Assembly: GCA_964624115.1 (NCBI GenBank)
Contig: CAZUXI010000001.1
Span: 35,548 to 99,547 of the forward strand
Length of the DNA: 64,000 bases
Direction of reading: 5' to 3'
Source: an uncultured Candidatus Peribacteria bacterium
Lineage (GTDB): Bacteria; Patescibacteriota; Gracilibacteria; UBA1369
In this document: piece by piece, positions 7,371 through 55,369 of the stretch
Layout of the letters: each line of letters starts with the position of its first letter
Numbering within the stretch: the stretch's first letter is position 1
Made by a program: the position numbers and the translations under genes
The notes under the pieces: generated by a model
What the model was told of the DNA's origin: nothing
Seen by the model: only the letters and a program-made list of their open reading frames with translations
Databases searched by the model: none

Positions 7371-8651
7371 TTACTCTTCGATTCGCTTGAGGTTGGCACC
7401 GAGGGCGAGGAGTTTTTCGTCGAGGTTTTCGTAGCCGCGGTCGATGTAGCGGATGTTGGTGATTTCGGTGGTGCCATCCGCACTGAGGGCGGCGATGACC
7501 ATGGCGGCGCCGGCGCGGATGTCGCAACTGGCGATGGAGGTGCCGATGAGTTCGGTTGGGCCGTGAATGGAAGCTTGGTGTGGATTGTGGATTTCAATTT
7601 TGGTGTCCATTTTTTCGAGTTCGAAGAGGTAGTTCAGACGGCCTTCAAAAAGGGTTTCAAAGATTTTGCTGGTGCCGTTGGCAAGAGCGAGGAGGACGGC
7701 AAAAGGGGCTTGGAGATCGGTGGGGAAACCCGGGTAGACACCGGTTTTGAGCATGGGGATGGGTTTGAGTTCTGAGGCTGGGTAGATGGTGACTTCTTCG
7801 GTTTTGAGATCGTATTTGACGCCAATTTCGGTGAATTTTTGCCAGAGGGCGTCGAGTTGGTTGGTTTGGATGCCTTGGATGGTGATTTGGCCTTTGGTGG
7901 CTACGGAAGCGATGGCGAGGGTTCCCGCTTCAAGGTAATCGCCGGTGACGGTGTATTCAGTGCCTTGGAGGTTTTCGGTGCCGGTGATGGTGAGGAAGTT
8001 GGTGCCGATGCCTTCAATTGTGGCGCCCATTTTGATCAGGAGGTGGCAGAGGTCTTGGACGTGGGGTTCGCAGGCGGCGAGGCGGAGGTCGGTTGAGGTG
8101 CGGTCTGAGTTGGGAGGGATAATTGCGGCGAGCATGAGGGCGTTTTCGGTGGCGGTGACACTGAGTTCAGGGAGGATAATGAGGTTGGGTTGGAGCTGTT
8201 TTTTGCGGAGGTGAAGCTGGGTTTCTTCGTCGAGGATTTCGATTCCGAGGGCACGGAAGGCTTGGGTGTGGGCGTCAACCGGGCGTTTCCCGAGAACACA
8301 GCCGCCTGGGAAAGGGATTTTGGTTTCCTGGAAATGAGTAAGAAGCGCAGGAAGAAGCAGGATTGAAGCGCGCATACTTAAAATGGCGTCCGCAGGAATG
8401 TTGGTGTTTTGGATAGTCGAAGGGTCGATTTTGGCGGTGTTGTTGGCAAATTCGACTTTCACCTTGAGGGCGCGGAAGATATCAAAGAGGAGGCGGATGT
8501 CGGCGATGTCGGGGACGTTGTGGATTATCGACGGGGTTTTTGCGAGAAGAGTAGCGCAAAGAATGGGGAGGGCAGCGTTTTTGGAACCGCTGACTTTGAC
8601 GGTGCCGCGGAGAGGGGTTGGGCCGGTGATGAGGTATTTGGGGGTGTCCAC
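7371..8651 (-). CDS. murA: UDP-N-acetylglucosamine 1-carboxyvinyltransferase
   Basis: 426 aa with a GTG start. Motifs VKVSGSKNAALPIL and the catalytic-Cys loop FPGGCVLGKRPVD, with full-length MurA architecture. The gene is visibly more GC-rich than its neighbours, and many spurious ORFs overlap it in the track. Confidence 0.9.
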   Translation of the reverse strand: MDTPKYLITGPTPLRGTVKVSGSKNAALPILCATLLAKTPSIIHNVPDIADIRLLFDIFRALKVKVEFANNTAKIDPSTIQNTNIPADAILSMRASILLLPALLTHFQETKIPFPGGCVLGKRPVDAHTQAFRALGIEILDEETQLHLRKKQLQPNLIILPELSVTATENALMLAAIIPPNSDRTSTDLRLAACEPHVQDLCHLLIKMGATIEGIGTNFLTITGTENLQGTEYTVTGDYLEAGTLAIASVATKGQITIQGIQTNQLDALWQKFTEIGVKYDLKTEEVTIYPASELKPIPMLKTGVYPGFPTDLQAPFAVLLALANGTSKIFETLFEGRLNYLFELEKMDTKIEIHNPHQASIHGPTELIGTSIASCDIRAGAAMVIAALSADGTTEITNIRYIDRGYENLDEKLLALGANLKRIEE

Positions 8652-8700
8652 TGCGTGGGAGAATTAAGAATTGAGAATTGAGGGTTAGAATTAAGGGTGG
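8652..8700 (-). promoter_or_regulatory. G-free AATTCT-repeat leader directly upstream of the murA GTG
   Basis: The minus strand reads CCCTTAATTCTAACCCTCAATTCTCAATTCTTAATTCTCCCACGCA-GTG. It shares TTAATTCTAA and AATTCTCAATT with the leaders at 50984 and 62308. Confidence 0.4.
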
Positions 8701-8868
8701 TCGCGGGGTGCTGTTTTTTTGTGTGAGTTTTTATTATAGGTGAAGGTTGGTAAAAGGGAAGAGGTGGATTTATGGGTTTCTTAGAAATACTTTAAATTGA
8801 TGATGTATTTTTGGGTTAATTTACTTTGTGGAACAAATCGTGTATCATTTAATTGTATAATTAATTGT

Positions 8869-9144
8869 ATGAATATGTATACACATAACGATACTGTATT
8901 TGTTGGAACGAGTGAGCTCCGATCAAATGGAGGTAAGATCCTGCAAGAATTAAAAAATAAAAAAATTGTTTTAATGAATAAGGGAAAAGCTATCGCCATT
9001 ATTGAAAGTTTGGACGAGTATGAAAAAACTCAAAATAAAATTGAGGAGATTGAAGATCTTGTTTTAGGGCATATTGCCAAAGAACGAATGAAGAATGGTA
9101 AATTTATATCAAGTGATGAAATGCAGAAATTACTCTTTTCTTAA
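8869..9144 (+). CDS. Phd/YefM-family antitoxin
   Basis: The small protein VFVGTSELRSNGGKILQELKNKKIVLMNKGKAIAIIESLDEYEK sits immediately upstream of a RelE/ParE-type gene. The start is at ATG 8869 or 8875. TTAATTGTAT direct repeats lie just upstream. Confidence 0.7.
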   Translation: MNMYTHNDTVFVGTSELRSNGGKILQELKNKKIVLMNKGKAIAIIESLDEYEKTQNKIEEIEDLVLGHIAKERMKNGKFISSDEMQKLLFS

Positions 9145-9154
9145 ACGAGATGTT

Positions 9155-9442
9155 ATGAATTATACGATTGTTTTTCATGAGAAGGTTTGGAGTGAAGATT
9201 TTGAGAAATTGGATATTCCGGTGCGTAAGAAGATCTTTAAAGCGATTGAGAAAAAACTTACCACCAATCCACTTGATTATGGGAAAGCACTGACAGGTAA
9301 TCTGCAGGGGTTTTTCCGATTACGAGTTGATGATTATCGGGTGGTTTATTCGATTCGTGAAAAAGAGGTTGCTGTTTATGTCTTAAAAGTTGGTTTCAGG
9401 CGGGATATGGAGGTTTATTTTGAGGTGATGAAGAGGATTTAA
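9155..9442 (+). CDS. RelE/ParE-family toxin
   Basis: MNYTIVFHEKVWSEDFEKLDIPVRKKIFKAIEKKLTTNP...FRLRVDDYRVVYSIREKEVAVYVLKVGFRRD, which is a typical RelE/StbE pattern. It is paired with the antitoxin gene. Confidence 0.75.
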   Translation: MNYTIVFHEKVWSEDFEKLDIPVRKKIFKAIEKKLTTNPLDYGKALTGNLQGFFRLRVDDYRVVYSIREKEVAVYVLKVGFRRDMEVYFEVMKRI

Positions 9443-9996
9443 GTATACCCGGAAGCGATTGGTTACTTGACGATTGTAGTAAAGAGTTCCGTCCCGGGAC
9501 GGCGAGAATTGGCTTTTTTGCTTATGGGGAAGCGGTTGAGTGTAAAAAAACTTGGTGATTCTTGTAGAATAATGGAGGGTGGAGTATTGACAAAATGTCA
9601 ATTTAATGATAAAAAGGTTCTCACGATTGATTTTGGGAGGCTTCTCGGATGAAAAGTTTTGGCTTTTCGGAGCTATAACACTTGATTCCGGCGGGGTTAA
9701 CCAGCGGTTGTGAGATCTTTGACACAACGGATACTTCAAATTATTAGGCTTTTGACTCTTTGAGCTGAAAGTTTACAGGGCCAAAACCTGTTCACCGGTG
9801 AAAGTGAATAGGTTTTGGCTCTGTGGCATTTTGCACGGAGTCGAAAATTCGCACTGCTCATGCAGTGCACACTTACCTTTACTTCACTTTACTTCCTTTG
9901 GATTCAAAAGGCGTTTGCCTCAGAATCCACTTAACCTCTTAGCGAAATGGTTCGCTGAGAGTTGTCTTTTCTCTAACCCATGAAAGGTTGACTCCC

Positions 9997-11928
9997 ATGT
10001 CGACCCTCCGACCGCCTCCTGGTGGTTCTGCAGTTCCTCCCGTCCCGCCCACCACCCCCCACCCTAGTTGCCGTCCCCACCCCACACCCCCCCCGGTTTA
10101 CCCCTTCCCAACCCCACCGCCCCCAACCACCCCCCCCCCCCCCTCAGGTACCGCCATGAACCAGACCACCGATCCGCTCGACAACGCCATAACAGCTCCC
10201 CGCCAGCTCCCCTCGCTCCCCGTCATCGCCCCCGTCGAGATCCCCGGCGTCCCCCCGCCCAGCCCGTGGCCAAAGCGTCTCGGGAGGGCGGCGACGCTCG
10301 GACTTCTCTTCACCTCGGGGAGCTGCGCCTGGTATGGTTACCAGGCCTGGAACACCGGCAAAGAGTTCATCGAAATCCTCCCCGTCCTCCCCATGGTCGT
10401 GGTGGCACTCGCCATCATGGTCGTCACCTTGCTGTTTCCCATCATCGTGGGAATGCTCAAGGAACTCGTCGGGGACACGTCCAACGCCGCCAACAAGAAG
10501 CCGATTGTCGCCCAGATCGTGGTCTCCATGATCATCGCTGGCGTCATCGTGTACTTGTTTGATAGCTCGGCTGGGGTCGTGTTCCATGCCGTGGGCACCG
10601 ACACCACCAAGAAGCTCGGATTCCTATCCTTCCTCGGCTGGCTTGGCTGGACGGGGCACAGCTTCGGGTGGTTCCGCTCCCTCCCGGCCCTCATCGAGGA
10701 CGAGCAGAAGGACACCCCCCTCGCGCTGTGGAGCTCGAAGTCCGTCTGGGCCGCGAGCGCCATCGCGGGCACCGGCGTCGCCGCGCTCTTCAGCCACGCG
10801 TACACCTGGATGTTCAACTCAGCCCTCCACTTGCTCGGCGCGAGCCTCGCTTGTGGCCTCGGGTTGGTCTTGATCGCCGGGCTGGGCGGGTGGATGTGGA
10901 GCAAATCGATCCGTGGTGCTGGCAAGGCTAGCTCGCTGTACGAGCAGTCCAAGAACGAAGCGAAGAACGAGCAGAGCTGGTTCACGTTGGTGAAATTCGT
11001 CATCCTCGTGGTGGAATTGTCCGTCGGTCTCTTCATCGGGTTGGCCATGTGGCCGCACGACCCGGGCTTCGGGCCCTACCACCTCCTGGCGATCGTGACA
11101 GGGTTCGTCTCGTTCTTGATCACCTTCAGCTTCGTGGGGAGCGCCGTCAACATGGCCTACCACAAGGACCAGGGCAGCAAGAAGACCTGGTACGCCATCG
11201 GGCTGTCGCTCCTGATCGCCACCATCACCGGCATCTTCTCCAGCTCAGAGATGTACGCCCTCGTCAGCCGTAACGACCGCTTCGAGAACGAGAAGGCAGA
11301 GATCCTTCAGCAGAGCAACACCTTCATGAGCAATGCCACCACCCCGGCCCTCGTCGTCGCGAAAGCGCTCGGCGGGGACACCGGCAAGTCAATCAGCGAC
11401 GGAGTGGACAAGGCCAAGAGCGGCGTCGAGCAGATCCGGCGGGCGACCGACCGCGAGCAACTCGAGACCGCCACCGCCGAGTTCATGAAAGGTGCCACCG
11501 CCATGAGCAACCGGGACGACGACCGGAAGCTCCTTACCAACATCAAAGTGAACCCCGAGCCGGTGAGCGTCCAGCTCTTCGTCGACGCCATGACCAGCAT
11601 CTTCGGCGGCAAGGGCTACCTCCACAAGGGTGCCTTGCTGGCGGCGTTCGGCCTCGTGTTCATCTTCGACTTCGCCGCGTTGTTCGCGGCGCTGATCACG
11701 ATGGCGCGCAGCCCGAACCGCTTCGCCAAGGCGAAAAGCAAGCAGATGCTGGAGCTCGAGGATGCTGCAGAAGAGGCCAAGCAGCGCGCTGAGCTCGCCG
11801 AGCAGATCGCCCAGTCGAACAAGAAGATCACCGGCACCCACCAGCAGCCCGCGCCCCAGTCCCTCCTCGTGACCCCCACCCCGCAGGACGTCGCGGCGGT
11901 CAGCCAGGGCCGGTCCGTCATCAAGTAG
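9997..11928 (+). CDS. Orphan polytopic membrane protein with a Pro-rich N-terminus, carried on GC-rich cassette 1
   Basis: This is the only coherent frame among more than 10 overlapping ORFs. It uses G/C-ending codons throughout (atc, ttc, ctc, aag, gag, gcc). AAAGG lies 8 nt upstream of ATG 9997. It has about 9-10 hydrophobic helices and a charged C-terminal region. I recognise no family. Confidence 0.65.
   Translation: MSTLRPPPGGSAVPPVPPTTPHPSCRPHPTPPPVYPFPTPPPPTTPPPPSGTAMNQTTDPLDNAITAPRQLPSLPVIAPVEIPGVPPPSPWPKRLGRAATLGLLFTSGSCAWYGYQAWNTGKEFIEILPVLPMVVVALAIMVVTLLFPIIVGMLKELVGDTSNAANKKPIVAQIVVSMIIAGVIVYLFDSSAGVVFHAVGTDTTKKLGFLSFLGWLGWTGHSFGWFRSLPALIEDEQKDTPLALWSSKSVWAASAIAGTGVAALFSHAYTWMFNSALHLLGASLACGLGLVLIAGLGGWMWSKSIRGAGKASSLYEQSKNEAKNEQSWFTLVKFVILVVELSVGLFIGLAMWPHDPGFGPYHLLAIVTGFVSFLITFSFVGSAVNMAYHKDQGSKKTWYAIGLSLLIATITGIFSSSEMYALVSRNDRFENEKAEILQQSNTFMSNATTPALVVAKALGGDTGKSISDGVDKAKSGVEQIRRATDREQLETATAEFMKGATAMSNRDDDRKLLTNIKVNPEPVSVQLFVDAMTSIFGGKGYLHKGALLAAFGLVFIFDFAALFAALITMARSPNRFAKAKSKQMLELEDAAEEAKQRAELAEQIAQSNKKITGTHQQPAPQSLLVTPTPQDVAAVSQGRSVIK
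10130..10143 (+). repeat. Poly(C) tract of 14 nt inside the CDS (codes TPPPP); a second C8 tract lies at 10087-10094
   Basis: Counted directly from the sequence lines: ...aaccac cccccccccc ccc tcagg. Confidence 0.9.
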
Positions 11929-12167
11929 TTGGCAACTCCAAGCCCCAGCAACCCGGCTGGCTAAATACAGGGGAGCTCCAACGTACGCGACGTTGTTGAG
12001 CTCAAGGTAAGGCCACAAACAAAAAGGGAGCGTTTGATTGATTTCACGCTCCCTCCCACAGAAGTATCTGTTGTGTCCTACCTCTTGTTTCTTCAGATGA
12101 AGAGATAGAAGGTAGGAAGAAAGATTGGATTGATGAGATTTACCTCATTTGCCAGGTGAATTTTTTG

Positions 12168-13754
12168 TTATTCTTGTTCTGGTTTTTCGTTATCCAGTGT
12201 TTTTTTACCGTAAACCATTGGCATGATGGCTTTCATGAACTCTTCTGGATTGTTTTTTGAAGGAGGGAGTTCTAAGCCAGAGCCACCACCTTTGGTTTTT
12301 CCACCGTACATTCCGGTAGCGTCATCGAGTTTCAAGTAGAAGGTACCGTTGAATTTTGGTGTCCAAGATTTGTCATCATTTTGGTAAGCATAATCTTTGA
12401 CGACCACTTTTTGGGTGTAGCCTTTGTCGACGTACTCTTTGTCTGTGGTTGCATCCAAATCGGTCACGGTGAGGTTATGTTTTGGTAAATGACGGAGGTC
12501 CTCAAGCATTTGTTTGCCTTTATCACGATCTAAACCATCAAGTTTTGCTTTGAGATCAGCGGCTTTCATGTTTTTAAGATCTGATACTTCAGAAGTTTTT
12601 GGATCGTTCGCTTTGAGGGTGAGGAGTTTTGAGTTGTAGGTACCATCTGCGTTATAGGTGATTTCCATGCGTTGTTCACCGAGTTTGGCGTACGTAGTTT
12701 CACCTACTTTTGCTGGAGGGTTGTCGATCACAAAACCTTGATCGGTTAATTCTTTTGTTCGTTTTGCGACGTCCGCGTTTTCTTTGGTCTCAGGTTTTCT
12801 TGGTGCTGGCGGTGGGGTAACTGGAGGTGCTGGGGTTGGTTTTACAGGTACTGGCGGTGGGGTGACTGGAGGTGCTGGGGTTGGTTTTACAGGTGCTGGC
12901 GGTGGATTTGGTGCCGGTGTGTTTGCCCGAGCAGCATCGAGTTGGGCTTTGACCCATTCGGCAGTCATTACTTTGTTGGCTGTGTTGTTGAGAACTTTGT
13001 CTGGGTCTTTACTATCTACTTCCAGTTTTTGGAGATGGTCGGCATTGTCCCAACCTGGAAATTGACCTTTCATAGCGGCTAAACCCTGACGGCTCATTTC
13101 GCCGGTTTCTGATAATGCAGAAAGGCGAATGGCTTCTTTGAGCCATTGGCGGTTATTTTTCAGATCATCAGTATCACCGGGTTTTTCTGGATTGAGTTCG
13201 ACCCATTTCATGGCTGCTTGACGGAGTTGGTTTCGGGCGAGCTCGGAATCGGTGGTTTCGATGTCGATGACTTTGAGGGGTGATGGTTTGAGTTTACCAT
13301 CTTCGGTGTAGAGGGTTCGTACTTCGTCGAGTTTTGTTTTAAGTGCATCCGCCGCATCTTTTTTCTCCTGGTCGGTATATGGGATCATTTTTTCTGGATT
13401 TCCACCGTCTGATTTTAAACCGAATTCAGCTTTACGAGCGTCCATGATTTTGTCGTCAAGTTCGTGGAGTTGATCGCGGTTGGCTTTATCTGGTTCGAAT
13501 TGGTATTTTTTGAGCATCATGACGGACTGACCAATGATTGCGTTGCGGCCTTCTGGATTTTCTTTATCCTCACGAGCATTTGGGGCATCAAAATCTTTGG
13601 CATTTGGTGATGCTTCTGCATTAAGCTCCTGGCCACGGAGGGCTTTGAAGTTTTCCGGTTGGCCACCTTCAAAAACCAAACGATTGGTGAGTTCGAGGGC
13701 TGCGGCTACTTTACAGCTGAGGAGGTTACGGGTGTTAAAAAAGAGTTTTTTCAT
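12168..13754 (-). CDS. Hypothetical protein, paralog A (528 aa) with a Pro-rich tandem repeat and a unique C-terminal domain
   Basis: The N-terminal ~190 aa align with ORF 13796..14614 (RLVFEG, PNAKDFD, EGRNxIxGQ, MLKxYQxEPD, PLKVxDIExTDxELARNQLR). I recognise no family. Confidence 0.6.
   Translation of the reverse strand: MKKLFFNTRNLLSCKVAAALELTNRLVFEGGQPENFKALRGQELNAEASPNAKDFDAPNAREDKENPEGRNAIIGQSVMMLKKYQFEPDKANRDQLHELDDKIMDARKAEFGLKSDGGNPEKMIPYTDQEKKDAADALKTKLDEVRTLYTEDGKLKPSPLKVIDIETTDSELARNQLRQAAMKWVELNPEKPGDTDDLKNNRQWLKEAIRLSALSETGEMSRQGLAAMKGQFPGWDNADHLQKLEVDSKDPDKVLNNTANKVMTAEWVKAQLDAARANTPAPNPPPAPVKPTPAPPVTPPPVPVKPTPAPPVTPPPAPRKPETKENADVAKRTKELTDQGFVIDNPPAKVGETTYAKLGEQRMEITYNADGTYNSKLLTLKANDPKTSEVSDLKNMKAADLKAKLDGLDRDKGKQMLEDLRHLPKHNLTVTDLDATTDKEYVDKGYTQKVVVKDYAYQNDDKSWTPKFNGTFYLKLDDATGMYGGKTKGGGSGLELPPSKNNPEEFMKAIMPMVYGKKTLDNEKPEQE
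12802..12905 (-). repeat. 45-nt tandem repeat, about 2.3 copies, coding (VKPTPAPPVTPPP)x2
   Basis: On the plus strand, ggtgctggcggtggggtaactggaggtgctggggttggttttaca (12802-12846) repeats at 12847-12891 with 2 mismatches. A partial third unit follows. Confidence 0.9.
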
Positions 13755-13795
13755 ATGGGTTTTTAAATGATTTTTTTATTAATTTATTGGTTTAT

Positions 13796-14614
13796 TTATG
13801 AGCGAGCGGTGTCGAGGGCGGATTTGAGGTTCTTTGCAGCTTCGGTTTTATTTATTTTTCGTGTTAAGGGAGGAGTATCTTTTGGGTTATCATTAATGCC
13901 TATTTTGGTTGCATTTGAACCGAATTTTGCTTTTACTTGTTCTGCTGTTTGGTTGTAGAGCTCGCCAGTTTCAGCATAGATGGAAAGTGCGAGGGCTTTT
14001 TTTAGATTTGCGAGATTATCTTTATTTTTATCGGTTTCTTTGGTTTCTTTGAGGAATTTTTGTGCTACTGCACGGAGTTGGTTACGTGCAAGCTCGGTAT
14101 CAGTGGCTTCGATATCAACTACTTTTAAAGGTGGTGGAACGAGTTTGTTCGTTTTAGCGTCGGTGTAGAGTCCACGAACTTTATCGAGTTGTGTTTTAAG
14201 TTCAGTGGCAGCAGTGGTCTTTTCTGCTTCGGTGTATTCTTTTCCATCATCTTTTAAGCCGGCTTCTGTTCTACGAGATTCAACGATGAGTGAATCGAGA
14301 CTTCTTAATTGCTGACGTTTTCCTTCAGTTTCAGCGGTACCGGTATCTGGTTCGTATTGATAACGTTTTAACATCAAAATGGCTTGGCCACGGATAATGT
14401 TGCGGCCTTCAGCGGTTTCTGCTTTTTCACGAGCGAGGTCTTTGTCAAAATCTTTCGCGTTTGGTTCTTCACTTTGCAAATTCGGCTCCACATCACGAAG
14501 GGATTGGAAGTTTTCAGCAGTTGGACCTTCGAAGACTAACCGTTGGGTGAGTTCGATGGTGTTTTTTGCTTTACAGCTGAGGATTTTTCCAGTGAGGAAA
14601 AGTCTTGTTTTCAT
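13796..14614 (-). CDS. Hypothetical protein, paralog B (272 aa)
   Basis: It shares the N-terminal domain with ORF 12168..13754, on the same strand and 41 nt apart. Confidence 0.6.
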   Translation of the reverse strand: MKTRLFLTGKILSCKAKNTIELTQRLVFEGPTAENFQSLRDVEPNLQSEEPNAKDFDKDLAREKAETAEGRNIIRGQAILMLKRYQYEPDTGTAETEGKRQQLRSLDSLIVESRRTEAGLKDDGKEYTEAEKTTAATELKTQLDKVRGLYTDAKTNKLVPPPLKVVDIEATDTELARNQLRAVAQKFLKETKETDKNKDNLANLKKALALSIYAETGELYNQTAEQVKAKFGSNATKIGINDNPKDTPPLTRKINKTEAAKNLKSALDTARS

Positions 14615-14763
14615 GTGAGGGTTTTATTTGTTTTTGATTTTTGCTTCGGCTTTCCATTGGGAAATCTTTAAATTATACCATATCTTTTTTAAATGTAAAA
14701 TACATTTAAAGCTCCAACGGAAGAATGGCTGATTGCCTTCGCTTTTGCCAAAAAAACTTATCC

Positions 14764-17700
14764 CTAGGTATTTTTGAGGAATTTTTCTAATGTTTCGAAG
14801 TGTCCCTGGGCGAAGGTTTCTTCAAAGGGCATATACGCGGGGAGTCTCACTCGGGTGCGGGTGGCTACGGTTCCGTCAGTTTTTTGGACCTGTTCCTGGA
14901 TGGTTACGGCTTTTTTTTGGAGTTCAGCGGCTTCTTTTTGGGATTTTTCTTGTTCGTACCTGGCGTATCTTTCCAGACGCTCCTTAATGCTGAGATATTT
15001 CAGAAGGTTTGGCTGGAGTACCTCAAGGTATTTTTTTCGTGCTTCCTGGATATTATGGCTGAGTTGATCTTCAATTTGGTGTCTGGTTTTCTGGGTGATG
15101 TGGGGAATGTTTTGCGGCTTTCTGATGGCTTCAAAAATCTCTCTGATCCAGGGGGATTCGTCTTTTTCTTCCAGATCGTAGTAAAGCACTCCCAGACGGG
15201 TTTTGGTTTCGAGATCTTGGCCTTCTTCAGCGTCTTGAAACAAAGCCCTTCGTAATGCACTTTCCGCATCACGTTCGTGTCGTTGGTGTACGGTATATAA
15301 TGTTGTTCCTGCATCGGTTGTTGTTGCTCCCAGGTCATAGGAGAGTGGAAGTGTGTAGGCTCTTGAGCGACGGACATATACTTCGGTGGGCAGTGATTGT
15401 TTGGTGTTTAAGTCTTCATAGAGTTTTTTCAGGTCAAAAATACGTTCGTAATATTTTTTCCCTCCGATGGTAACGACACGGAAAAGGGTGACTTCTGCAA
15501 GTTCTGCTGGCGCAGGTTGTGGCAGTTGTTCACCGATGAGCAGGGGCTCAAAAATTTTTTTTATTTTGGCACGGTTGGTTTCGAGTTTTTTTCGTTCCGC
15601 TTCGGCACGTTTTTTTCGAATGAGCTTGTCACGGTCGGTGAGGTCGATGGCCATTTCTCCGACGTTTCTTTCAGAAGTGACCGTTGGGGGTAAATCTGGT
15701 TCTGGATGGGATGATGGTGGTGGGACTGACGGTGGGCTTTGATCAGGCGAAGGAATGATTGCATTCTTGTCCGGACTTGGTGGGGCTGGTGGTTCTGCAG
15801 GTATTAGAACTGGTTTTGCTTTGCGGACAAGGACTTTACATAAAACTTCCAAAGCAAGGAAATGTATTTCTGAAAATAATGGTCCCATGACCCCTTGCAC
15901 GGTGCTTTCGTTTTCTCCGAGCAATTGAGTGGGTATGCCATTTTGATCAAGCAGGCGGATATGCATTTCTCCGTTCGGGTTTATTTGGAGATGTAATGGT
16001 TCGACGTTTGTTCCGGTAAGGGTAACGTAGCCGCTTAATCCGACCTCGGCGTTTTTGACTGATTTGGCTGGTTTTACCTTGGCTTGGGTGTAATATTTGG
16101 TGAGTGCGGAAGTACAGGAGGATAGGTCCAGGATGTTACCAGCTGAGGAAATATGGCTGGATTTCTCATCTTTTAAGGTTTGGATAAGCCCATTCAGGTC
16201 ACGGAGTGGATAGGGGCCATTGAGATCTTTCAGCGTAAAATGCTGAATATTTTCCAATGCCTTTGTGTGAGTAATATCAAGGGCTTTGATGGCTTGAAGT
16301 TCCTCAATACTTAGGCTAAGAAAGCTCATTATATACTCGTCTGTGACGTCAAAATTTTTCCGTGATCGGAGTCCATAAGCAATGAGTTTAATTTTTTTGG
16401 CCGGTTTTAATTTGCTGTTATCCAGAATGTTTTTGAGTACCAGGAGACTGTTCTTTACACCTGCGTTTAATGCTTTTTGTGCGAACTTCTCAAGGAGTTC
16501 TTCTTCTGCCTGACCATCATGAAGGTTGAGGAGTCCGGCAAATACTTCGGCAGCGTTGTACGCGGTCTGATAGTTATTTCCAAAACATTCGGAAACAATT
16601 TCGTTCAAATGACTCGCCATTTTTTGCCAACGTTTGGCTGAAAAAAAGTTAAGAAAAAAGTCGATTCCCGGCTCAGTGAGATCCTCAATGTTGTCATTTA
16701 TCTTTCCATCGGTTTGATACCAGGTCAGAAGTGCTCGAATGGTGTTTGGTTTTTGAGCTATGAGGTCGAGAATTTTTTCTGGACATTGTTCAGCAGCCGG
16801 GAGGCCTTGATTGTAGTTATATCTTTCAACGAGTTCGAGTGGATTTTCAGCTTTTTCAAGGACTCGTTGATAAGCTTCACGTTTTTTGTTGAAGACTCTT
16901 GTTATCTTCTGGAGTGTTTTTGGGTCGGTGGTCGTTTTTTGGTATGCAGCAAATTCTTCATTGATGGGGCGAAAGGTTGTATCAAGCCAATTCCTGTATA
17001 TTTTGTAATCAGCAAAATTTGGATGTTCTACGGCACTTTGAGGGTTTGCCCCTGACTCTAACCAGATGTGTTTCCAGATTCTGGCGATCGACTGGATATG
17101 TCCGGCCGGTATAGCGAGTGACCGGTTTGGTTTGATATCGATCTTTATGCCTCTTTGTTCCAGCATCAAGGCAAAATTTGCCATTTCCTGATAAAGTTTT
17201 GTTAAAAAATCTCTTTGCTTTGAATACTCTTGTATTGCCCGTTCGGATAATTGGGAAGTGTTGAGTTCCAATGGTTTTGCCTCGCGTAAAAAGGTCAGAA
17301 CGTAGATGAGACCTAAGGCTTCTTTTTGCCGCTCATTCTTTTGTTCTTCATCTGATTCATTGGCAAAGTGACTTGTGGCGTAGGTATCAACAATATGGAA
17401 AAGTGCGCTTTTAAATTCAGTTTCTACTACCGATTGAACGATTTTGATTATTTCTGCCTCGTCATGAGTATGCAAAATCTGCGTGGCGATTCTACTATAC
17501 AAATACAGCAATGGTCTCGCGATGCGGTCTGAGAGGCAGGCAGTTTCTACATTATGTTTTTGATGTTTTGCCAGAACACGGTCACTATCGACGGAATTGG
17601 TTTTCATCATGAATTCATCATTTTTGCTTACGCTTTGGACTTTTTTTATTAAGCGACTGATTAATTTGGATATCCGTGGATCACCCAGTTGTCCGACTCG

Positions 17701-18132
17701 GCAGAGGAGGGTTTTATGATCAACAAACTCACGGAGGAATTCAGGTGATTTTTCTGTCGCTAAAAAATTTATTGCGTCCTGCTCACTTTCGCCCAGTGCC
17801 GCTTGAAGATATCTTGAAACGGGCCAGAGACCATTGTGTAAGGTAGCGAGCAATGCTGCCGGGGTCTGTGAATCAAAAAGATCTTCGTGTGCCATCACTT
17901 GAAGTAAATCTAAAAGCGTTTGGAGATCGTGATCTGATAATCCGATAGGATTATTGGAATGGAGTTTACTCTCGATTCTAGTTCCTTGACTTAACCAACG
18001 GGTTTTCAAAATATCGGGGACGTTTTTCCCTTTCGCTTGAAGTGCATTGAGAAATGGTAAGTATTTTTCTTCTGCAAAGGTCAACTGCTCTTGTCTTTCT
18101 CTTAACGCCTCTTCTTCAGGAAATAATGGCAT
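14764..18132 (-). CDS. Giant helical ORFan (about 1122 aa) with an internal Pro-rich linker
   Basis: Uninterrupted ORF 14764..18150. The first ATG is at 18132 (MPLFPEEEAL); a TTG at 18150 is an alternative start. It has no signal peptide or TM and uses native C/A-ending codons. The Pro-rich segment is PAEPPAPPSPDKNAIIPSPDQSPPSVPPPSSHPEPDLPP. Confidence 0.6.
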   Translation of the reverse strand: MPLFPEEEALRERQEQLTFAEEKYLPFLNALQAKGKNVPDILKTRWLSQGTRIESKLHSNNPIGLSDHDLQTLLDLLQVMAHEDLFDSQTPAALLATLHNGLWPVSRYLQAALGESEQDAINFLATEKSPEFLREFVDHKTLLCRVGQLGDPRISKLISRLIKKVQSVSKNDEFMMKTNSVDSDRVLAKHQKHNVETACLSDRIARPLLYLYSRIATQILHTHDEAEIIKIVQSVVETEFKSALFHIVDTYATSHFANESDEEQKNERQKEALGLIYVLTFLREAKPLELNTSQLSERAIQEYSKQRDFLTKLYQEMANFALMLEQRGIKIDIKPNRSLAIPAGHIQSIARIWKHIWLESGANPQSAVEHPNFADYKIYRNWLDTTFRPINEEFAAYQKTTTDPKTLQKITRVFNKKREAYQRVLEKAENPLELVERYNYNQGLPAAEQCPEKILDLIAQKPNTIRALLTWYQTDGKINDNIEDLTEPGIDFFLNFFSAKRWQKMASHLNEIVSECFGNNYQTAYNAAEVFAGLLNLHDGQAEEELLEKFAQKALNAGVKNSLLVLKNILDNSKLKPAKKIKLIAYGLRSRKNFDVTDEYIMSFLSLSIEELQAIKALDITHTKALENIQHFTLKDLNGPYPLRDLNGLIQTLKDEKSSHISSAGNILDLSSCTSALTKYYTQAKVKPAKSVKNAEVGLSGYVTLTGTNVEPLHLQINPNGEMHIRLLDQNGIPTQLLGENESTVQGVMGPLFSEIHFLALEVLCKVLVRKAKPVLIPAEPPAPPSPDKNAIIPSPDQSPPSVPPPSSHPEPDLPPTVTSERNVGEMAIDLTDRDKLIRKKRAEAERKKLETNRAKIKKIFEPLLIGEQLPQPAPAELAEVTLFRVVTIGGKKYYERIFDLKKLYEDLNTKQSLPTEVYVRRSRAYTLPLSYDLGATTTDAGTTLYTVHQRHERDAESALRRALFQDAEEGQDLETKTRLGVLYYDLEEKDESPWIREIFEAIRKPQNIPHITQKTRHQIEDQLSHNIQEARKKYLEVLQPNLLKYLSIKERLERYARYEQEKSQKEAAELQKKAVTIQEQVQKTDGTVATRTRVRLPAYMPFEETFAQGHFETLEKFLKNT

Positions 18133-18277
18133 AATTTTTGAAGGGTTCAATGATTATGGATGGATACTCTACTGCATTTTTATTTTTTTGCAACATTTCT
18201 TTTTTTTGTGGGGTATGAATTGAGAAGTTTTTTAGATGTGATCGGTACCTTGATGGGGATTTTATGAAAAAAAACTT

Positions 18278-22946: not shown

Positions 22947-23188
22947 AGGTTTCATTATTGTTGATTTATATTTGTCATTTTTTTGGTTGATTTTTCGGGA
23001 AAGTGGGCGTTATAGTGCGCGCGTTCTTTAAAAATGCCTTTTGTAGCTTTTGGTTAGCGGAAAGTTTCGGGATAAAGTCTTCTTTTTTTGGGGAAGTTTT
23101 ATGCGAGGTTTTCCGCTGGCCTCAAGTTCTGGGCTATGCCTGTGGCTCTGACAGGTTCAGAGTGTGTTGTGTTCGTGGAGGTGGTTCC

Positions 23189-23674
23189 ATGGCTGATTTG
23201 AAGGTGTTTGTGGGGCTCGTGGGGACTAAGACTGTTGTCCGTGTTGCCGAGACCGAAGTGCAGGCTCGGCAGGGGCTCGACGGGGAGCCTACGTTCTTGA
23301 TCAATGTCGAGAATGAGGGTACGAAAAAGCCTCCACCTGAGTTGGAAGGGATTCTCGACGCGATTGGGCTCTTTGGGCAAGCCACGAAAGAGGAGCTTGA
23401 AGTTGCTCTTCTTTTCATGCTGGTCTCAGGTATAGAGATTGGCTCGCGGATCCGGCTGGAGAACTTGGAAAAACCTGAGGACTTTGTCCGGGTTACCCGG
23501 AGCGTCTTCGGACTGAATCCCGTTCTCGACCAAGAGCCGACGGACCGAGCTCCTCCGGTTACCACGACCTTGCCGCCGCCGGGTCACGACGACCCGACGG
23601 ATCGCCCTCCCGTAGTCGGGGATGACCAGGACGACCCTGGCCATCCTGAGTACAAGCAGCCCAAGGGCTGCTGA
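23189..23674 (+). CDS. Orphan acidic 161-aa protein with a Pro-rich C-terminus, carried on GC-rich cassette 2
   Basis: GGAGGTG lies 6 nt before ATG 23189. The frame is coherent (MADLKVFVGLVGTKTVVRVAETEVQARQG...DDPGHPEYKQPKGC). The antisense ORFs are Ser/Arg-rich junk. A hairpin plus T-run follows the TGA stop. Confidence 0.6.
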   Translation: MADLKVFVGLVGTKTVVRVAETEVQARQGLDGEPTFLINVENEGTKKPPPELEGILDAIGLFGQATKEELEVALLFMLVSGIEIGSRIRLENLEKPEDFVRVTRSVFGLNPVLDQEPTDRAPPVTTTLPPPGHDDPTDRPPVVGDDQDDPGHPEYKQPKGC

Positions 23675-53604: not shown

Positions 53605-53780
53605 TTCCCAATGAATTTAATTGACGAATTTTTCCTTTTATAGAGGCCAAATATTAATAATTAACAAGGTTTACCAATAGCTTTAATATAACCGCTTGGG
53701 GCTTTTTTGTTTGGAAGGCTTGTAAATGGGGCTGTTTTTTGCTATTATTATATGAAAACAAAATTTTTATTTCACAAAAT

Positions 53781-54170
53781 ATGCTGAAAAAAATCAAAAA
53801 AGCTCTGGTGATTGGCACCTACACCGTTATGGGCTTCAACCTTGTATCTGTTCTCCCTGTGAGTGCCCAGGGAATGATCTCTGAAAAAGATCAACCATCA
53901 CGTATTTCTGATGCAACGGGTGGAGCTGATGATTTCAGAACCCTTGCTCAGACTTTTTTAAGCTTTTTCCTTGGATTTTTGGGATTCATCGCGGTGATGA
54001 TGATCATTTATGCCGGTATTTTGTATATTACTGCTCAAGGTGAACAAGATAAGGTTGATAAAGCAAAGAAAATTATTACTTACTCTATCGTAGGTATTCT
54101 TATTATCCTCCTCTCTTACGCTATCGTTAGTACTGTTCTTGGTGGTGTTGGTGCAGGTAGTGATCAGTAA
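53781..54170 (+). CDS. TrbC/VirB2-like 'T4SS pilin' small membrane protein
   Basis: Signal peptide ending VSAQG, then two TM helices around a conserved loop (IAVMMIIYAGILYITAQGEQDKVDKAKKIITYSIVGILIILLSYAIV). This pattern is common in Patescibacteria, from memory. Confidence 0.65.
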   Translation: MLKKIKKALVIGTYTVMGFNLVSVLPVSAQGMISEKDQPSRISDATGGADDFRTLAQTFLSFFLGFLGFIAVMMIIYAGILYITAQGEQDKVDKAKKIITYSIVGILIILLSYAIVSTVLGGVGAGSDQ

Positions 54171-54335: not shown

Positions 54336-54479
54336 TTAGCGCCACTTCTTGATGAATTTTACGACGTCGAAGTTTTTGGGGAGTTTGACGTCGGAGAAAG
54401 CTTTTTGGAGGTCGATCATGGCTTGTTTGAGCTCCATGGCGTCTTTCGTCATTTTTTGTTTTTTTCGTGAGTTGGTCAT
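54336..54479 (-). CDS. 47-aa basic ORF translationally coupled to the 3' end of the PIN gene (possible cognate partner)
   Basis: Own translation: MTNSRKKQKMTKDAMELKQAMIDLQKAFSDVKLPKNFDVVKFIKKWR. Its ATG overlaps the PIN TGA (ATGA). It is below the 60-aa cutoff of the ORF track. Confidence 0.4.
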   Translation of the reverse strand: MTNSRKKQKMTKDAMELKQAMIDLQKAFSDVKLPKNFDVVKFIKKWR

Positions 54480-55138: not shown

Positions 55139-55176
55139 AAAAGAGCCCTCGACGTCGGATGACGGAGGGCTCTTGG
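55139..55176 (-). terminator. Hairpin terminator of the cassette-3 gene
   Basis: aagagccctc (55141-50) pairs perfectly with gagggctctt (55165-74). On the minus strand it is followed by a short T-run. Confidence 0.5.
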
Positions 55177-55369
55177 GGATGGACCGCAGGGACGCGCCTC
55201 GAGCCGTTGCCTTGGGAGGCTTGGGCGAGAGCGTTGCGATACGCGGGTGAGGCGCGTTTACCTGAAGGTCCATGGTGTGCCCGGGCAGAGTTTCAAATGT
55301 CTCTGCTCGGGCGTGAATCACGGTGAGCTCCCCAGCTCAGCGTGAGTGGCTCGATCGAGTTCTAAACTT

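What the first reader, a model, noticed from the sequence alone, without database searches (positions are those of the whole stretch)
9990..12010. GC-rich cassette 1: foreign-codon polytopic membrane protein next to a toxin-antitoxin pair
Composition flips abruptly from the AT-rich background to strongly GC-rich. The ORF track shows more than 10 long overlapping ORFs in all frames, which is typical of stop-poor DNA.

The coherent frame (9997-11928) uses almost only G/C-ending codons (atc, ttc, ctc, aag, gag, cag, gcc). Native + strand genes nearby end in G/T (ttg, gtg, gat, ttt). The cassette carries its own AAAGG ribosome-binding site and its own GC hairpin after the stop (gagctc-caacgt...acgttg-tt-gagctc, 11973-12003).

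The product has a Pro-rich head of about 60 aa, about 9-10 TM helices and a charged helical tail. I recognise no family. It lies directly beside the Phd/RelE module and converges on the ORFan operon.
Basis: seen in the sequence. Interest (0 to 1): 0.75.

Follow-up and report, generated by a model that had tools for sequence, protein, structure and literature searches.

The report
Native gene that is always GC-rich
The GC-rich block is probably not imported DNA: it is this bacterium's copy of a fast-evolving membrane-protein gene that is GC-rich in every related AT-rich genome I could examine and is bracketed by conserved regulatory signals, so here odd composition does not mean foreign origin.

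Summary
Window 9990-12010 has 64% GC against a 42% background. ORF 9997-11928 has GC3 0.88, which is 6.4 SD above 46 other ORFs.

The foreign-cassette reading does not hold. The host is a Peribacteria/Peregrinibacteria (CPR) bacterium. A full HMMER scan found 15 distant homologues (22-28% identity). In all 10 further independent loci I could fetch, the homologue is also a gene-sized GC-rich island (GC3 0.63-0.92) in a 38-45% GC contig.

Every locus shares one architecture:
- a TTGACA-17-TATAAA promoter and a 5' stem-loop;
- an inverted repeat (core GACAACTGG plus co-varying extensions) flanking the ORF;
- a covariation-supported 3' hairpin;
- a convergent, homologous partner gene.

Two strains whose housekeeping proteins are 94-97% identical carry alleles only 27% identical, swapped almost exactly at the ORF boundaries.

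So this is a native, hypervariable, lineage-specific unit, and its GC-richness is a family rule. The cause is unresolved. I favour selection on the transcript (5'-3' UTR pairing, extra mRNA structure). GC-biased gene conversion is the main rival.

A second, unrelated GC-rich gene at 55.1-56.5 kb has the same design.

I found no published description or Rfam/Pfam model.

The parts
9587..9615 (+). Promoter: -35 TTGACA (9587-9592), 17-nt spacer, TG-extended -10 TAAAAA (9610-9615). Inferred transcription start near 9622.
   Evidence: The same TTGACA-(16/17)-TATAAA arrangement lies 75-140 nt upstream of IR-L in all 11 loci (window sequence). Read by eye from aligned sequences. The consensus scanner did not list it, because position 6 of the -10 is A.
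9620..9714 (+). 5' UTR stem-loop domain that starts at the inferred 5' end of the transcript.
   Evidence: MFE -37.2 kcal/mol, z -3.1 against shuffles. The equivalent segment folds into a long hairpin in the other 7 loci tested.
9721..9737 (+). IR-L: left arm of the inverted repeat that brackets the ORF (GACACAACGGATACTTC), preceded by TTT.
   Evidence: Complementary to 12061-12077 with 1 mismatch (G.T). These are the only two matches in 64 kb. Ten other loci have TTGACAACTGG plus a locus-specific extension at -28 to -552 from the ATG.
9936..9971 (+). Terminator-like hairpin plus T-run in the leader, just before the SD. Possibly an attenuator.
   Evidence: Terminator scan; fold z -3.0. No function shown.
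9983..9987 (+). Shine-Dalgarno AAAGG, 9 nt before ATG 9997.
   Evidence: Read from the sequence.
9997..11928 (+). GC-rich ORF of 643 aa: Pro-rich head, about 9-10 TM helices, a helical extramembrane insert and a charged tail. It is a divergent member of an unnamed Peregrinibacteria family.
   Evidence: GC3 0.88. 15 homologues with E from 1e-18 to 8e-4. Alignment A1. AF2 model confident for residues 325-575. No Pfam, PHROG, PDB or Foldseek match.
10130..10143 (+). 14-nt poly-C tract inside the Pro-rich head. An in-frame ATG follows at 10156.
   Evidence: Read from the sequence. It could be a slippage or sequencing-error site. Not tested.
11973..12003 (+). GC-rich hairpin 45 nt after the stop codon, with no U-tract.
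   Evidence: Fold. Comparable GC hairpins follow the stop codon in other loci (sequences, read by eye).
12015..12053 (-). Terminator-like hairpin (12053-12026) plus T-run (12025-12015) on the minus strand. Probable end of the partner operon's transcript.
   Evidence: Read from the sequence and fold. The loop is too long for the scanner's rule.
12061..12077 (+). IR-R: right arm of the inverted repeat (GAAGTATCTGTTGTGTC).
   Evidence: Other loci carry extension'-CCAGTTGTC at +52 to +175 after the stop codon.
12076..12117 (+). Conserved 3' hairpin that directly abuts IR-R.
   Evidence: RNAalifold on 11 loci gives 16 pairs, 9 with compensatory changes. G.U pairs fit the + strand. The covariance model hits window 12052-12135 at 65.5 bits, E 3e-10, and hits once per family locus and nowhere else in 477 kb. 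Fold z -4.7. No Rfam family.
12168..13754 (-). Convergent partner gene, 528 aa: N-terminal domain, Pro-rich linker and a conserved C-terminal domain of about 200 aa. Ordinary composition (GC3 0.40).
   Evidence: The C-terminal domain is homologous to the convergent neighbour in L081, L084, L085, L087, L093 and L094 (E from 6e-5 to 1e-15; alignment A5). No Pfam or PDB relative.
13796..14614 (-). Paralogue (272 aa) of the N-terminal half of the partner protein.
   Evidence: 45% identity over 286 aa, E 1e-50.
8797..9442 (+). Phd/YefM-ParE/RelE toxin-antitoxin pair. An adjacent neighbour, not part of the conserved unit.
   Evidence: Pfam. Not homologous to the TA pair beside the module in L094, and absent from the other loci.

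Best explanation
The GC-rich block is the coding region of a native, lineage-specific transcription unit of Peregrinibacteria (CPR bacteria). It is not imported DNA.

Anatomy of the unit. It runs: strong sigma-70-type promoter, 5' stem-loop, left inverted-repeat arm, leader, SD, GC-rich ORF, right inverted-repeat arm, conserved 3' hairpin. It converges on a homologous partner gene.

Product and variation. The ORF encodes a very fast-evolving envelope membrane protein of about 10 TM helices. Deeply divergent alleles are swapped between strains by recombination in the conserved UTRs.

Composition. High GC (above all GC3) is a property of the whole gene family. It is maintained in place in genomes that are otherwise 38-45% GC.

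Mechanism I think most likely (inferred, not shown). Selection acts on the transcript. The two repeat arms lie in the 5' and 3' UTRs and pair as RNA, either in cis, clamping the mRNA ends next to the two hairpins, or through a 3' RNA acting on the leader. The GC-rich, strongly base-paired ORF then makes an unusually stable or tightly controlled mRNA.

How sure. That it is native, conserved and family-wide GC-rich: about 0.9. That an RNA-level cause explains the GC-richness: about 0.4.
For: Host. MurA, DnaB, LysS, ArgS, YifB and ComEC match Candidatus Peribacteria/Peregrinibacteria MAGs with conserved gene order.

Family. 15 homologues were found in 1.84 billion representatives: E from 1e-18 to 8e-4, colinear, of similar length.

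Composition. In 11 of 11 loci from at least 6 projects and assemblers, the family gene has GC 0.53-0.66 and GC3 0.63-0.92. Flanks have GC 0.38-0.45 and neighbouring ORFs have GC3 0.33-0.46. The GC step coincides with the ORF to within about 100 nt.

Shared architecture in all loci.
- Promoter.
- Exact GACAACTGG upstream and exact CCAGTTGTC downstream.
- Extensions that are Watson-Crick in 8-9 of 9 loci at five positions, with 2-3 pair types each.
- A 3' hairpin with 9 compensatory pairs and sense-strand G.U pairs. It is found only at these loci.
- A homologous convergent partner gene.

Arms are transcribed. Both arms lie downstream of the promoter. In L088 and L093 the left arm lies between promoter and SD, 28-44 nt from the ATG.

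Hypervariability. In L085 versus L087, flanking proteins are 94-97% identical and the family protein is 27% identical. Nucleotide similarity stops 12 nt into the ORF and resumes about 40 nt after the stop codon. In L088 versus L089 the reverse holds: the ORF has 7 differences in 2031 nt while the far upstream flank is 7% diverged.

mRNA structure. 9 of 11 family ORFs fold better than synonymous-codon shuffles (z from -3.3 to -9.4). 12 of 13 control genes gave z from +1.1 to -3.1.

Second case. A second, unrelated GC-rich gene in the window (55.1-56.5 kb) has the same promoter, UTR inverted repeat and terminator design.

Precedents. 5'/3' UTR pairing controls stability or translation in B. subtilis hbs mRNA (PMC5737220) and S. 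aureus icaR mRNA (PMC3868564).
Against: No transcript data exist. The promoter, transcription start and 3' end are inferred.

A GC hairpin between the stop codon and IR-R (11973-12003) could end transcription before IR-R.

The four mismatches seen in the repeats split evenly. Two are G.U on the sense strand and two are A.C on the sense strand. Complementarity at DNA level is therefore not excluded.

The window's own ORF is not more structured than its shuffles (z -1.2). One control gene reached z -6.4. The shuffle test also breaks codon-junction dinucleotides.

RNA-level selection does not obviously predict the rise in GC1 and GC2 or the shift towards G/A/R/P amino acids. That pattern looks like directional substitution pressure.

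A family member with ordinary composition, or one in a GC-rich genome, could exist.

The function of the protein is unknown.
Confidence: 0.6

Rival explanations
1. GC-biased gene conversion at a recombination hot spot. The locus is exchanged so often between strains that biased mismatch repair has driven the ORF to high GC. The repeats and hairpins would be unrelated regulatory elements.
For: There are clear recombination footprints at the locus in both directions. All three codon positions and the amino-acid usage shift towards GC, in roughly the proportions expected from directional pressure (the proportions are from my own knowledge of Muto-Osawa-type relations). A link between recombination and GC3 has been proposed for bacteria (own knowledge, Lassalle et al. 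2015).
Against: The partner gene's variable C-terminal half lies in the same exchanged block but has ordinary GC (GC3 0.19-0.40). The conserved UTRs, where crossovers must resolve, are only mildly enriched (0.47-0.53). Alleles 27% identical cannot form heteroduplex inside the ORF. The reported bacterial gBGC effects are a few percent of GC3, not +0.3 to +0.5 (own knowledge). It does not explain the ORF-sharp boundaries in 11 loci, or why cassette 2 has the same UTR design.
Confidence: 0.2
2. One reading: a recently acquired foreign gene from a GC-rich donor, not yet ameliorated.
For: GC3 is 6.4 SD from the genome's genes, and the sense-strand skew opposes the local strand bias. The segment 8652-18277 is absent between murA and yifB in the closest relative, L001. 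No close homologue was found in any collection searched.
Against: All located homologues sit in AT-rich CPR contigs and are equally anomalous there. The AT-rich flanks carry family-specific elements that pair across the ORF. The neighbouring AT-normal gene is a conserved partner. There is no integrase or transposase, no tRNA within 8 kb and no direct repeats. K exceeds R (5.3% vs 2.8%), which is unlike proteins of high-GC bacteria (the comparison is my own knowledge). No phage or plasmid relatives were found.
Confidence: 0.04
3. A DNA-level element. The inverted repeats would be recombination sites of an invertible segment, or the ends of a non-autonomous transposon whose cargo is the GC-rich gene.
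For: There are perfect 14-19 bp inverted repeats with a conserved 9-bp core. Mismatches do not favour G.U on one strand. The module sits at different chromosomal places in different genomes: beside rplJL in three loci, between murA and yifB here, and elsewhere in others.
Against: All 15 assembled copies (11 distinct loci plus 4 near-identical second contigs) have the same orientation relative to promoter and partner gene. The allele swap between L085 and L087 is bounded by the ORF, not by the repeats: 306 nt inside IR-L and 58 nt inside IR-R remain 94% identical. The partner gene and the 3' hairpin lie outside the repeats yet always travel with them. No recombinase gene is linked. This reading also does not explain the GC content.
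Confidence: 0.06
4. Assembly chimera or contamination: a fragment of a GC-rich organism spliced into the contig.
For: Abrupt composition steps are typical of chimeras. The cassette-1 protein is missing from the protein collection, although the cassette-2 protein of the same contig is present.
Against: A chimera would need two precise joins that leave an intact ORF with its SD. The same architecture recurs in 10 other loci from different samples and assemblers. Elements on the two AT-rich sides are complementary to each other.
Confidence: 0.01
5. The gene is adapted to be expressed in another, GC-rich cell. It would be delivered as DNA or RNA to the host of this presumed episymbiont, so its codons match the host rather than the bacterium.
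For: Codon usage is unlike that of the genome's own ribosomal-protein genes (rplL of L084 has GC3 0.34). The transcript design suggests an unusually protected RNA. Hypervariability would fit an arms race. A T4SS-pilin-like gene is present in the window.
Against: This is pure inference. No transfer signal, relaxase or packaging function was identified. The host is unknown. GC3 varies from 0.63 to 0.92 among loci.
Confidence: 0.03

Closest known systems
Borrelia vls antigenic-variation locus (vlsE plus silent cassettes)
   Same: It is a compositional anomaly conserved across strains and species in an AT-rich genome, tied to a hypervariable surface-protein gene. The vls cassettes average 49% G+C against about 28.6% for the chromosome, and the authors infer strong pressure to maintain this (PMC11499132). 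Sequence diverges while composition is kept. Inverted repeats lie near the expression site.
   Different: vls works by segmental gene conversion from an adjacent array of silent cassettes, has a G-rich coding strand (GC skew +0.52), and sits on a linear plasmid. Here the gene is single-copy with no paralogue in 64 kb. The coding strand is C-rich (skew down to -0.78). Whole-ORF alleles differ between strains. The bracket is a covarying repeat inside the UTRs.
mRNAs controlled by 5'/3' UTR base pairing: B. subtilis hbs (PMC5737220), S. aureus icaR (PMC3868564), and hok mRNA with its fbi element (own knowledge)
   Same: Complementary segments in the 5' and 3' UTRs of one gene, next to stem-loops. 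In the known cases the pairing protects the mRNA from RNases or locks translation.
   Different: No experiment exists here. The pairing would span 2.3-3 kb. It comes with a GC-enriched ORF, which none of the known cases has. Cis pairing versus a separate 3' RNA is undecided.
Horizontally acquired genomic islands, and phage 'morons' (own knowledge for morons)
   Same: A self-contained transcription unit with its own promoter and terminal hairpins and a composition unlike its neighbours. It lies in a segment missing from the closest relative.
   Different: The anomaly is shared by all located family members in all host genomes. The flanks are housekeeping genes, not prophage. There are no mobility genes. 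No relative was found in phage, plasmid or viral collections.
Polymorphic surface or envelope loci kept diverse by allelic replacement (for example flagellin central regions, capsule or O-antigen loci; own knowledge)
   Same: Conserved flanks with deeply divergent alleles between otherwise near-identical strains. Recombination breakpoints lie at the edges of the variable block.
   Different: Those loci are usually compositionally ordinary or AT-rich relative to the genome. Here every allele is strongly GC-rich and the variable block is a single ORF.

Membership tests
Recently acquired foreign gene / genomic island | Composition and codon usage deviate from the host genome | tested here: met
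   GC 0.64 vs 0.42. GC3 0.88 vs 0.40 +/- 0.075.
Recently acquired foreign gene / genomic island | Homologues in a donor lineage whose genome matches the gene's composition | tested here: not met
   All 10 located homologue loci are on 38-45% GC CPR-type contigs, where the gene is equally anomalous. Five of the 15 homologues could not be located.
Recently acquired foreign gene / genomic island | Mobility signatures: integrase or transposase, tRNA target, flanking direct repeats | tested here: not met
   The nearest tRNAs are at 1.6-1.8 kb and 38 kb. There are no flanking direct repeats. The neighbours are a TA pair and ORFans.
Recently acquired foreign gene / genomic island | Absent at the same place in close relatives | tested here: met
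   murA and yifB are adjacent in L001 and L005. However, the module exists at other positions in related genomes.
Integron gene cassette | attC site (57-141 nt imperfect palindrome with RYYYAAC / GTTRRRY cores) at the 3' end, conserved in kind among cassettes | tested here: not met
   The hairpin at 11973-12003 is 31 nt. GTTGAGC fits R', but the R'' core does not fit (read). Cassette 2 has no similar site. An integron integrase was not specifically searched for.
vls-type antigenic variation system | High G+C kept in an AT-rich genome at a variable surface-protein gene | tested here: met
   The vls values are from PMC11499132.
vls-type antigenic variation system | Array of silent donor cassettes homologous to the expressed gene | tested here: not met
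   No paralogue of the 643-aa protein occurs in any frame of the 64-kb window, nor in +/-10 kb of the other loci by GC profile. The rest of the genome was not available.
vls-type antigenic variation system | G-rich coding strand (strong positive GC skew, G runs) | tested here: not met
   The coding strand is C-rich: skew from -0.05 to -0.78, C3 0.55 vs G3 0.33.
mRNA with 5'/3' UTR pairing (hbs, icaR, hok type) | Complementary segments located in the 5' and 3' UTRs of the same gene | tested here: met
   Window arms at 9721-9737 and 12061-12077. All 11 loci carry them. The position relative to promoter and SD places the left arm in the leader. UTR status is inferred from promoter prediction only.
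mRNA with 5'/3' UTR pairing (hbs, icaR, hok type) | Complementarity maintained by compensatory change | tested here: met
   Positions 9-13 beyond the invariant core are Watson-Crick in 8-9 of 9 loci, with 2-3 pair types each.
mRNA with 5'/3' UTR pairing (hbs, icaR, hok type) | Pairing occurs in RNA and changes stability or translation | not testable with these tools
   Needs transcript mapping and mutagenesis. The strand test by G.U versus A.C mismatches is 2:2 and therefore inconclusive. The adjacent 3' hairpin does show sense-strand G.U pairs.
Unnamed Peregrinibacteria membrane-protein family (P0002-P0016) | Significant, colinear sequence similarity over the TM core | tested here: met
   Best E 1.1e-18; query residues 193-574 align with target residues 215-602. 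Shared motifs appear in A1.
Unnamed Peregrinibacteria membrane-protein family (P0002-P0016) | Conserved context: promoter, IR-L and IR-R, 3' hairpin, convergent partner gene | tested here: met
   The window's repeat core is diverged (GACACAACGG versus GACAACTGG).
Unnamed Peregrinibacteria membrane-protein family (P0002-P0016) | N-terminal coiled coil and C-terminal beta domain of about 100 aa | tested here: not met
   The window protein has a Pro-rich head instead, and a short charged tail. It is a divergent member.

The most novel reading that the evidence does not exclude
CPR bacteria of this lineage may possess a class of 'armoured' genes. These would be single-gene units whose ORF is held at high GC and whose transcript ends are clamped by co-varying UTR repeats and hairpins. 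A dedicated process would maintain them, for example selection for an exceptionally long-lived, inert or exported mRNA, or a gene-targeted GC-driving repair or recombination mechanism. The class would be used for hypervariable envelope proteins at the interface with host or phage. At least two unrelated genes in this genome would belong to it. If so, a strong compositional anomaly can be a stable, inherited, functional property of a gene rather than a mark of transfer.
Probability: 0.35. Interest if true: 0.9.

Novelty: categorically new. Interest (0 to 1): 0.8.

Why it matters
Atypical GC and codon usage are the textbook marks of horizontally acquired DNA, and 'amelioration' is assumed to erase them. 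Here a single-copy protein gene keeps a GC3 excess of 0.3-0.5 over its genome in every lineage examined, while its protein sequence diverges to about 25% identity. Some force therefore acts on the nucleotide composition of one transcription unit.

Explaining it would bear on several questions:
- how composition-based HGT detectors fail;
- whether selection on mRNA, or gene-targeted biased conversion, can be this strong in bacteria;
- how uncultured CPR episymbionts vary and control their envelope proteins.

The finding also delivers three testable objects: a new membrane-protein family with a partner protein, a new 3' RNA hairpin motif with a covariance model, and a UTR-UTR pairing.

Tried and rejected
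Word-indexed protein searches.
- The search with the single protein found nothing.
- The search with alignment A1 also found nothing, probably swamped by low-complexity words. Only the exhaustive HMMER scan found the family.

Exact-sequence look-ups.
- The cassette-1 protein with three alternative starts is not in the collection.
- The MurA look-up also failed.

Collection scans with the window protein found no relative in genome contigs, viral contigs, metagenome contigs, phages or plasmids. The family alignment found none in viral contigs. The 3' motif has no exact match in viral contigs.

Family and structure searches.
- Pfam, PHROGs and PDB by sequence gave no meaningful hit.
- The single-sequence AF2 model was poor (pLDDT 50).
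- The alignment-based model had no Foldseek match (best E 0.15, TM below 0.2).

Ideas tested and dropped.
- Shared end motifs between cassettes 1 and 2: only Pro-codon low complexity.
- Integron attC reading of the 11973-12003 hairpin: too short, cores do not fit, not shared.
- Overlapping or antisense gene as the cause of high GC3: no frame is longer than in synonymous shuffles.
- Ongoing hypermutation of the ORF: L088 and L089 ORFs differ at 7 of 2031 sites while their far upstream flanks differ by 7%.
- TA pair as part of the module: not homologous between loci.
- Ordinary expression-linked codon bias: the rplL gene near the module in L084 has GC3 0.34.

Rfam gave no family for any part. 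Literature searches for a description found none.

Full report
1. THE OBSERVATION

The composition step is real and sharp. GC is 0.650 and 0.634 in 10001-12000, against 0.39-0.45 on either side. At 100-nt resolution the rise begins at about 9950-10000 and the fall ends at about 12000-12050.

ORF 9997-11928 (+, 643 aa) has GC1/GC2/GC3 of 0.58/0.47/0.88. The 46 other ORFs of the window have mean GC3 0.40, SD 0.075, so this one lies 6.4 SD out. A 643-codon open frame has chance about 3e-8 at this composition.

They are opposite to those of native + strand genes at Y-ending codons. The SD (AAAGG, 9983-9987), the hairpin at 11973-12003, the Pro-rich head, the roughly 9-10 hydrophobic helices and the charged tail are all present. 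So are the Phd/ParE-type TA pair and the convergent ORFs.

The many overlapping ORFs are a side effect of stop-poor DNA. No alternative frame exceeds synonymous shuffles in any family member.

2. THE HOST

The surrounding genes are argS, a ComEC-type gene, murA, yifB, dnaB and lysS. Their best matches are in Candidatus Peribacteria/Peregrinibacteria MAGs (MurA 61%, DnaB 80%), with conserved gene order.

In the closest relative, L001, murA and yifB are adjacent. The window's 8652-18277 is therefore a lineage-specific segment. It holds the TA pair, the GC-rich gene and three ORFans. None of the relatives' murA neighbourhoods contains a GC-rich ORF.

3. NOT AN ORPHAN, AND NOT FOREIGN

Word-indexed and pattern-based searches found nothing. 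An exhaustive HMMER scan of 1.84 billion representatives found 15 homologues. E-values run from 1.1e-18 to 7.7e-4 and identity from 22 to 28%. Most are 660-760 aa and all align colinearly.

The alignment shows shared motifs through the membrane core and the helical insert. The relatives have an N-terminal coiled coil and a C-terminal beta domain, which the window protein replaces with a Pro-rich head and a short tail.

I could fetch DNA for 10 further independent loci from Logan, JGI, ENA and NCBI assemblies: L081, L082, L084, L085, L087, L088, L090, L091, L093 and L094. Four near-identical second contigs also exist (L083, L086, L089, L092).

- In every locus the homologue is itself a gene-sized GC-rich island. 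Gene GC is 0.53-0.66 and GC3 is 0.63-0.92.
- Flanks have GC 0.38-0.45, and other ORFs average GC3 0.33-0.46.
- The contigs are CPR-like: AMP phosphorylase with R15P isomerase, SLH proteins and a T4SS pilin.
- L091 shares with the window a 49%-identical ORFan and a 49%-identical flippase gene.
- GC1 (about +0.10), GC2 (about +0.07) and the G/A/R/P amino-acid fraction are also raised.
- Averaged over loci, GC climbs from about 100 nt before the ATG and drops within about 80 nt after the stop codon.

A recent transfer, or an assembly chimera, cannot produce the same anomaly in 11 genomes whose alleles are only about 25% identical.

4. THE AT-RICH FLANKS BELONG TO THE GENE

(a) Partner gene. The convergent downstream ORF is homologous across loci through a C-terminal domain of about 200 aa. 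Window residues about 320-526 match L087 at E 2e-15 and L081 at E 1e-15, among others. The window's 272-aa ORF is a paralogue of the partner's N-terminal half.

(b) Promoter. A canonical promoter, TTGACA-(16/17)-TATAAA, mostly with an extended TG, lies upstream in all 11 loci. In the window it is at 9587-9615.

(c) 5' stem-loop. The first 70-100 nt of the inferred transcript fold into a long stem-loop. In the window this is 9620-9714, z -3.1.

(d) Inverted repeat. Directly after the stem-loop comes TTGACAACTGG. Its exact reverse complement, CCAGTTGTC, lies 52-175 nt after the stop codon in all 10 other loci.
- The complementarity extends 4-9 nt further, with sequences that differ between loci but match within each locus.
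- At five consecutive positions, 8-9 of 9 loci are Watson-Crick with 2-3 pair types.
- The window's version is 9721-9737 paired with 12061-12077: 17 nt with one G.T mismatch and a diverged core. These are the only two matches in 64 kb.

(e) 3' hairpin. The right arm abuts a conserved hairpin, at 12076-12117 in the window.
- 16 pairs are predicted, and 9 show compensatory changes.
- G.U pairs at three positions fit only the sense strand.
- A covariance model built from it finds exactly one copy per family locus and none elsewhere in 477 kb. The window hit scores 65.5 bits, E 3e-10.
- Rfam has no such family.

The window's leader also carries a terminator-like hairpin with a T-run just before the SD, at 9936-9971.

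5. HYPERVARIABILITY

L085 and L087 come from very close strains. Flanking proteins are 94-97% identical and flanks are 90-94% identical at nucleotide level. Yet their family proteins are only 27% identical.
- Nucleotide similarity stops 12 nt into the ORF.
- It resumes about 40 nt after the stop codon for an 84-nt island that includes the right repeat arm and part of the hairpin.
- It is lost again through the C-terminal half of the partner gene.
- It returns in the partner's N-terminal half.

L088 and L089 show the converse. The ORF, leader and 3' side are nearly identical (7 differences in 2031 nt of ORF), while the far upstream flank differs by 7%.

The locus is therefore a recombination hot spot where deeply divergent alleles are exchanged. 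There is no sign of ongoing hypermutation. Three loci that share rplJL synteny have RplL 79-82% identical but family proteins only 22-25% identical.

6. A SECOND UNIT OF THE SAME DESIGN

The window's other GC-rich block spans 55140-56490 on the - strand. Its ORF (56224-55370) encodes 284 aa, Pro-rich with one TM helix, at GC3 0.80.

Its design matches cassette 1:
- a promoter, TTGACA-17-TAAATC (56483-56455);
- a 5' UTR hairpin (56374-56318);
- a 16-nt inverted repeat between the 5' UTR (56326-56311) and the 3' UTR (55266-55251), with one mismatch;
- a terminator (55175-55140).

Its protein is an NCBI singleton from a 363,948-bp contig. It is unrelated to cassette 1 apart from Pro-codon low complexity.

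7. HOW IT MOST LIKELY WORKS

Shown:
- a conserved, native, single-gene unit with a family-wide GC excess;
- co-varying complementarity between segments on either side of the ORF;
- a structured 3' element on the sense strand;
- allele exchange at the ORF edges.

Inferred:
- The two repeat arms are transcribed. They lie downstream of a strong promoter, and in L088 and L093 the left arm lies between promoter and SD.
- They pair as RNA, either clamping the mRNA ends next to the 5' and 3' hairpins or through a 3'-derived RNA acting on the leader.
- Comparable 5'/3' UTR pairings control stability or translation in hbs (PMC5737220), icaR (PMC3868564) and hok mRNA (own knowledge).

The GC-richness fits a transcript-level explanation in three respects.
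- It is bounded by the transcription unit.
- Both cassettes have the same sense-strand codon preferences, although they lie on opposite DNA strands.
- 9 of 11 family ORFs fold significantly better than synonymous shuffles (z from -3.3 to -9.4), against z from +1.1 to -3.1 for 12 of 13 controls.

Caveats:
- The window ORF itself gives z -1.2, and one control reached -6.4.
- Repeat mismatches are 2:2 for G.U versus A.C on the sense strand.
- GC1 and GC2 also rise, which looks like directional pressure.
- A GC hairpin lies between the stop codon and the right arm.
- There are no expression data.

The main rival is GC-biased gene conversion at this hot spot. It is weakened by the ordinary GC of the partner gene's co-exchanged variable half, and by the modest GC of the UTRs where crossovers must occur.

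The protein's function is unknown. The alignment-based AF2 model is confident for residues 325-575, but it has no PDB neighbour.

8. COMPARISON WITH WHAT IS KNOWN

The nearest precedent for a conserved compositional anomaly is the Borrelia vls system. Its cassettes average 49% G+C against 28.6% for the chromosome (PMC11499132). It differs in having silent cassette arrays, a G-rich coding strand and segmental conversion. All three features were tested here and not met.

Genomic-island, moron and integron-cassette readings fail on donor, mobility and attC criteria.

I found no description of this family, motif or phenomenon in Pfam, Rfam, PHROGs or the searchable literature.

9. VERDICT

- The 'foreign cassette' interpretation is replaced by 'native, hypervariable, constitutively GC-rich, UTR-bracketed gene unit'.
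- The phenomenon appears undescribed, and its cause is open.

Noticed in passing
window 55140-56490 (- strand): A second GC-rich unit. Its ORF (56224-55370) encodes a 284-aa Pro-rich single-TM protein, GC 0.71 and GC3 0.80. It has the same design as cassette 1: promoter 56483-56455, 5' UTR hairpin 56374-56318, a 16-nt inverted repeat (56326-56311 with 55266-55251) and a terminator at 55175-55140. The protein is a singleton in NCBI. Whether its relatives are also GC-rich could not be tested.
   Followed up: partly
window 7371-8651 (- strand), murA: murA has GC3 0.67, with C3 0.61 but A-ending purine codons (GAA .96, AAA .91, CAA .80). This is an extreme form of the strand skew (local GC skew +0.39 to +0.45). 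In the relatives examined, the ORFs containing murA have GC3 0.24-0.43. Unexplained.
   Followed up: partly
window 10130-10143: A 14-nt poly-C run inside the Pro-rich head, with an in-frame ATG 13 nt downstream (10156). It could be a slippage or phase-variation site, or an error-prone site. The cassette-1 protein is absent from the 15-billion-protein collection, although the cassette-2 protein of the same contig is present. The source annotation may therefore not call this ORF.
   Followed up: no
window 9649-9678: A mini-ORF (MKSFGFSEL*) 8 nt behind a GGGAGG (9635-9640), inside the 5' UTR stem-loop. A three-codon ORF (9980-9991) overlaps the SD of the main gene. Both could be leader peptides or chance.
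   Followed up: no
window 8652-18277; L001 9860-10001: murA and yifB are adjacent in the closest relatives (L001, L005) but separated by 3-6 kb of unrelated genes in L003, L004, L007 and L010, and by 9.6 kb here. This intergenic site is a variable hot spot in Peribacteria.
   Followed up: partly
window 12168-18150 and 56523-60182 (- strand): Large ORFans (528, 272, 1128 and 1219 aa). The 528-aa and 1219-aa proteins carry Pro-rich stretches. The 272-aa protein is a paralogue of the N-terminal half of the 528-aa partner protein. The partner proteins of other loci use Lys/Ala/Glu-rich or KPKVKPP linkers instead of the window's Pro-rich linker.
   Followed up: partly
window 53739-54170 (+) and 54476-54889 (-): A T4SS-pilin-like (TrbC/VirB2, PF18895) small membrane protein and a PIN-domain toxin lie next to cassette 2. 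L091 also has a T4SS-pilin gene about 10 kb from its family gene.
   Followed up: no
window 23003-23674 (+): An ORF with moderately raised GC (0.56; GC3 0.60) just upstream of and overlapping lysS, whose product has an N-terminal extension of about 80 aa. No Pfam hit. Not examined for flanking repeats.
   Followed up: no
L085 12197-12205 and L087 11222-11230: A near-copy of the left-arm core (GACAACTCG) lies about 50 nt upstream of the right arm in the 3' UTR of these two loci. It could form a local alternative pairing that sequesters the right arm.
   Followed up: no
L084, L093, L094: In three genomes the module sits directly downstream of rplJ-rplL. In L094 an unrelated ParE-type TA pair is wedged between rplJ and the module, mirroring the window's TA neighbour without homology.
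   Followed up: yes
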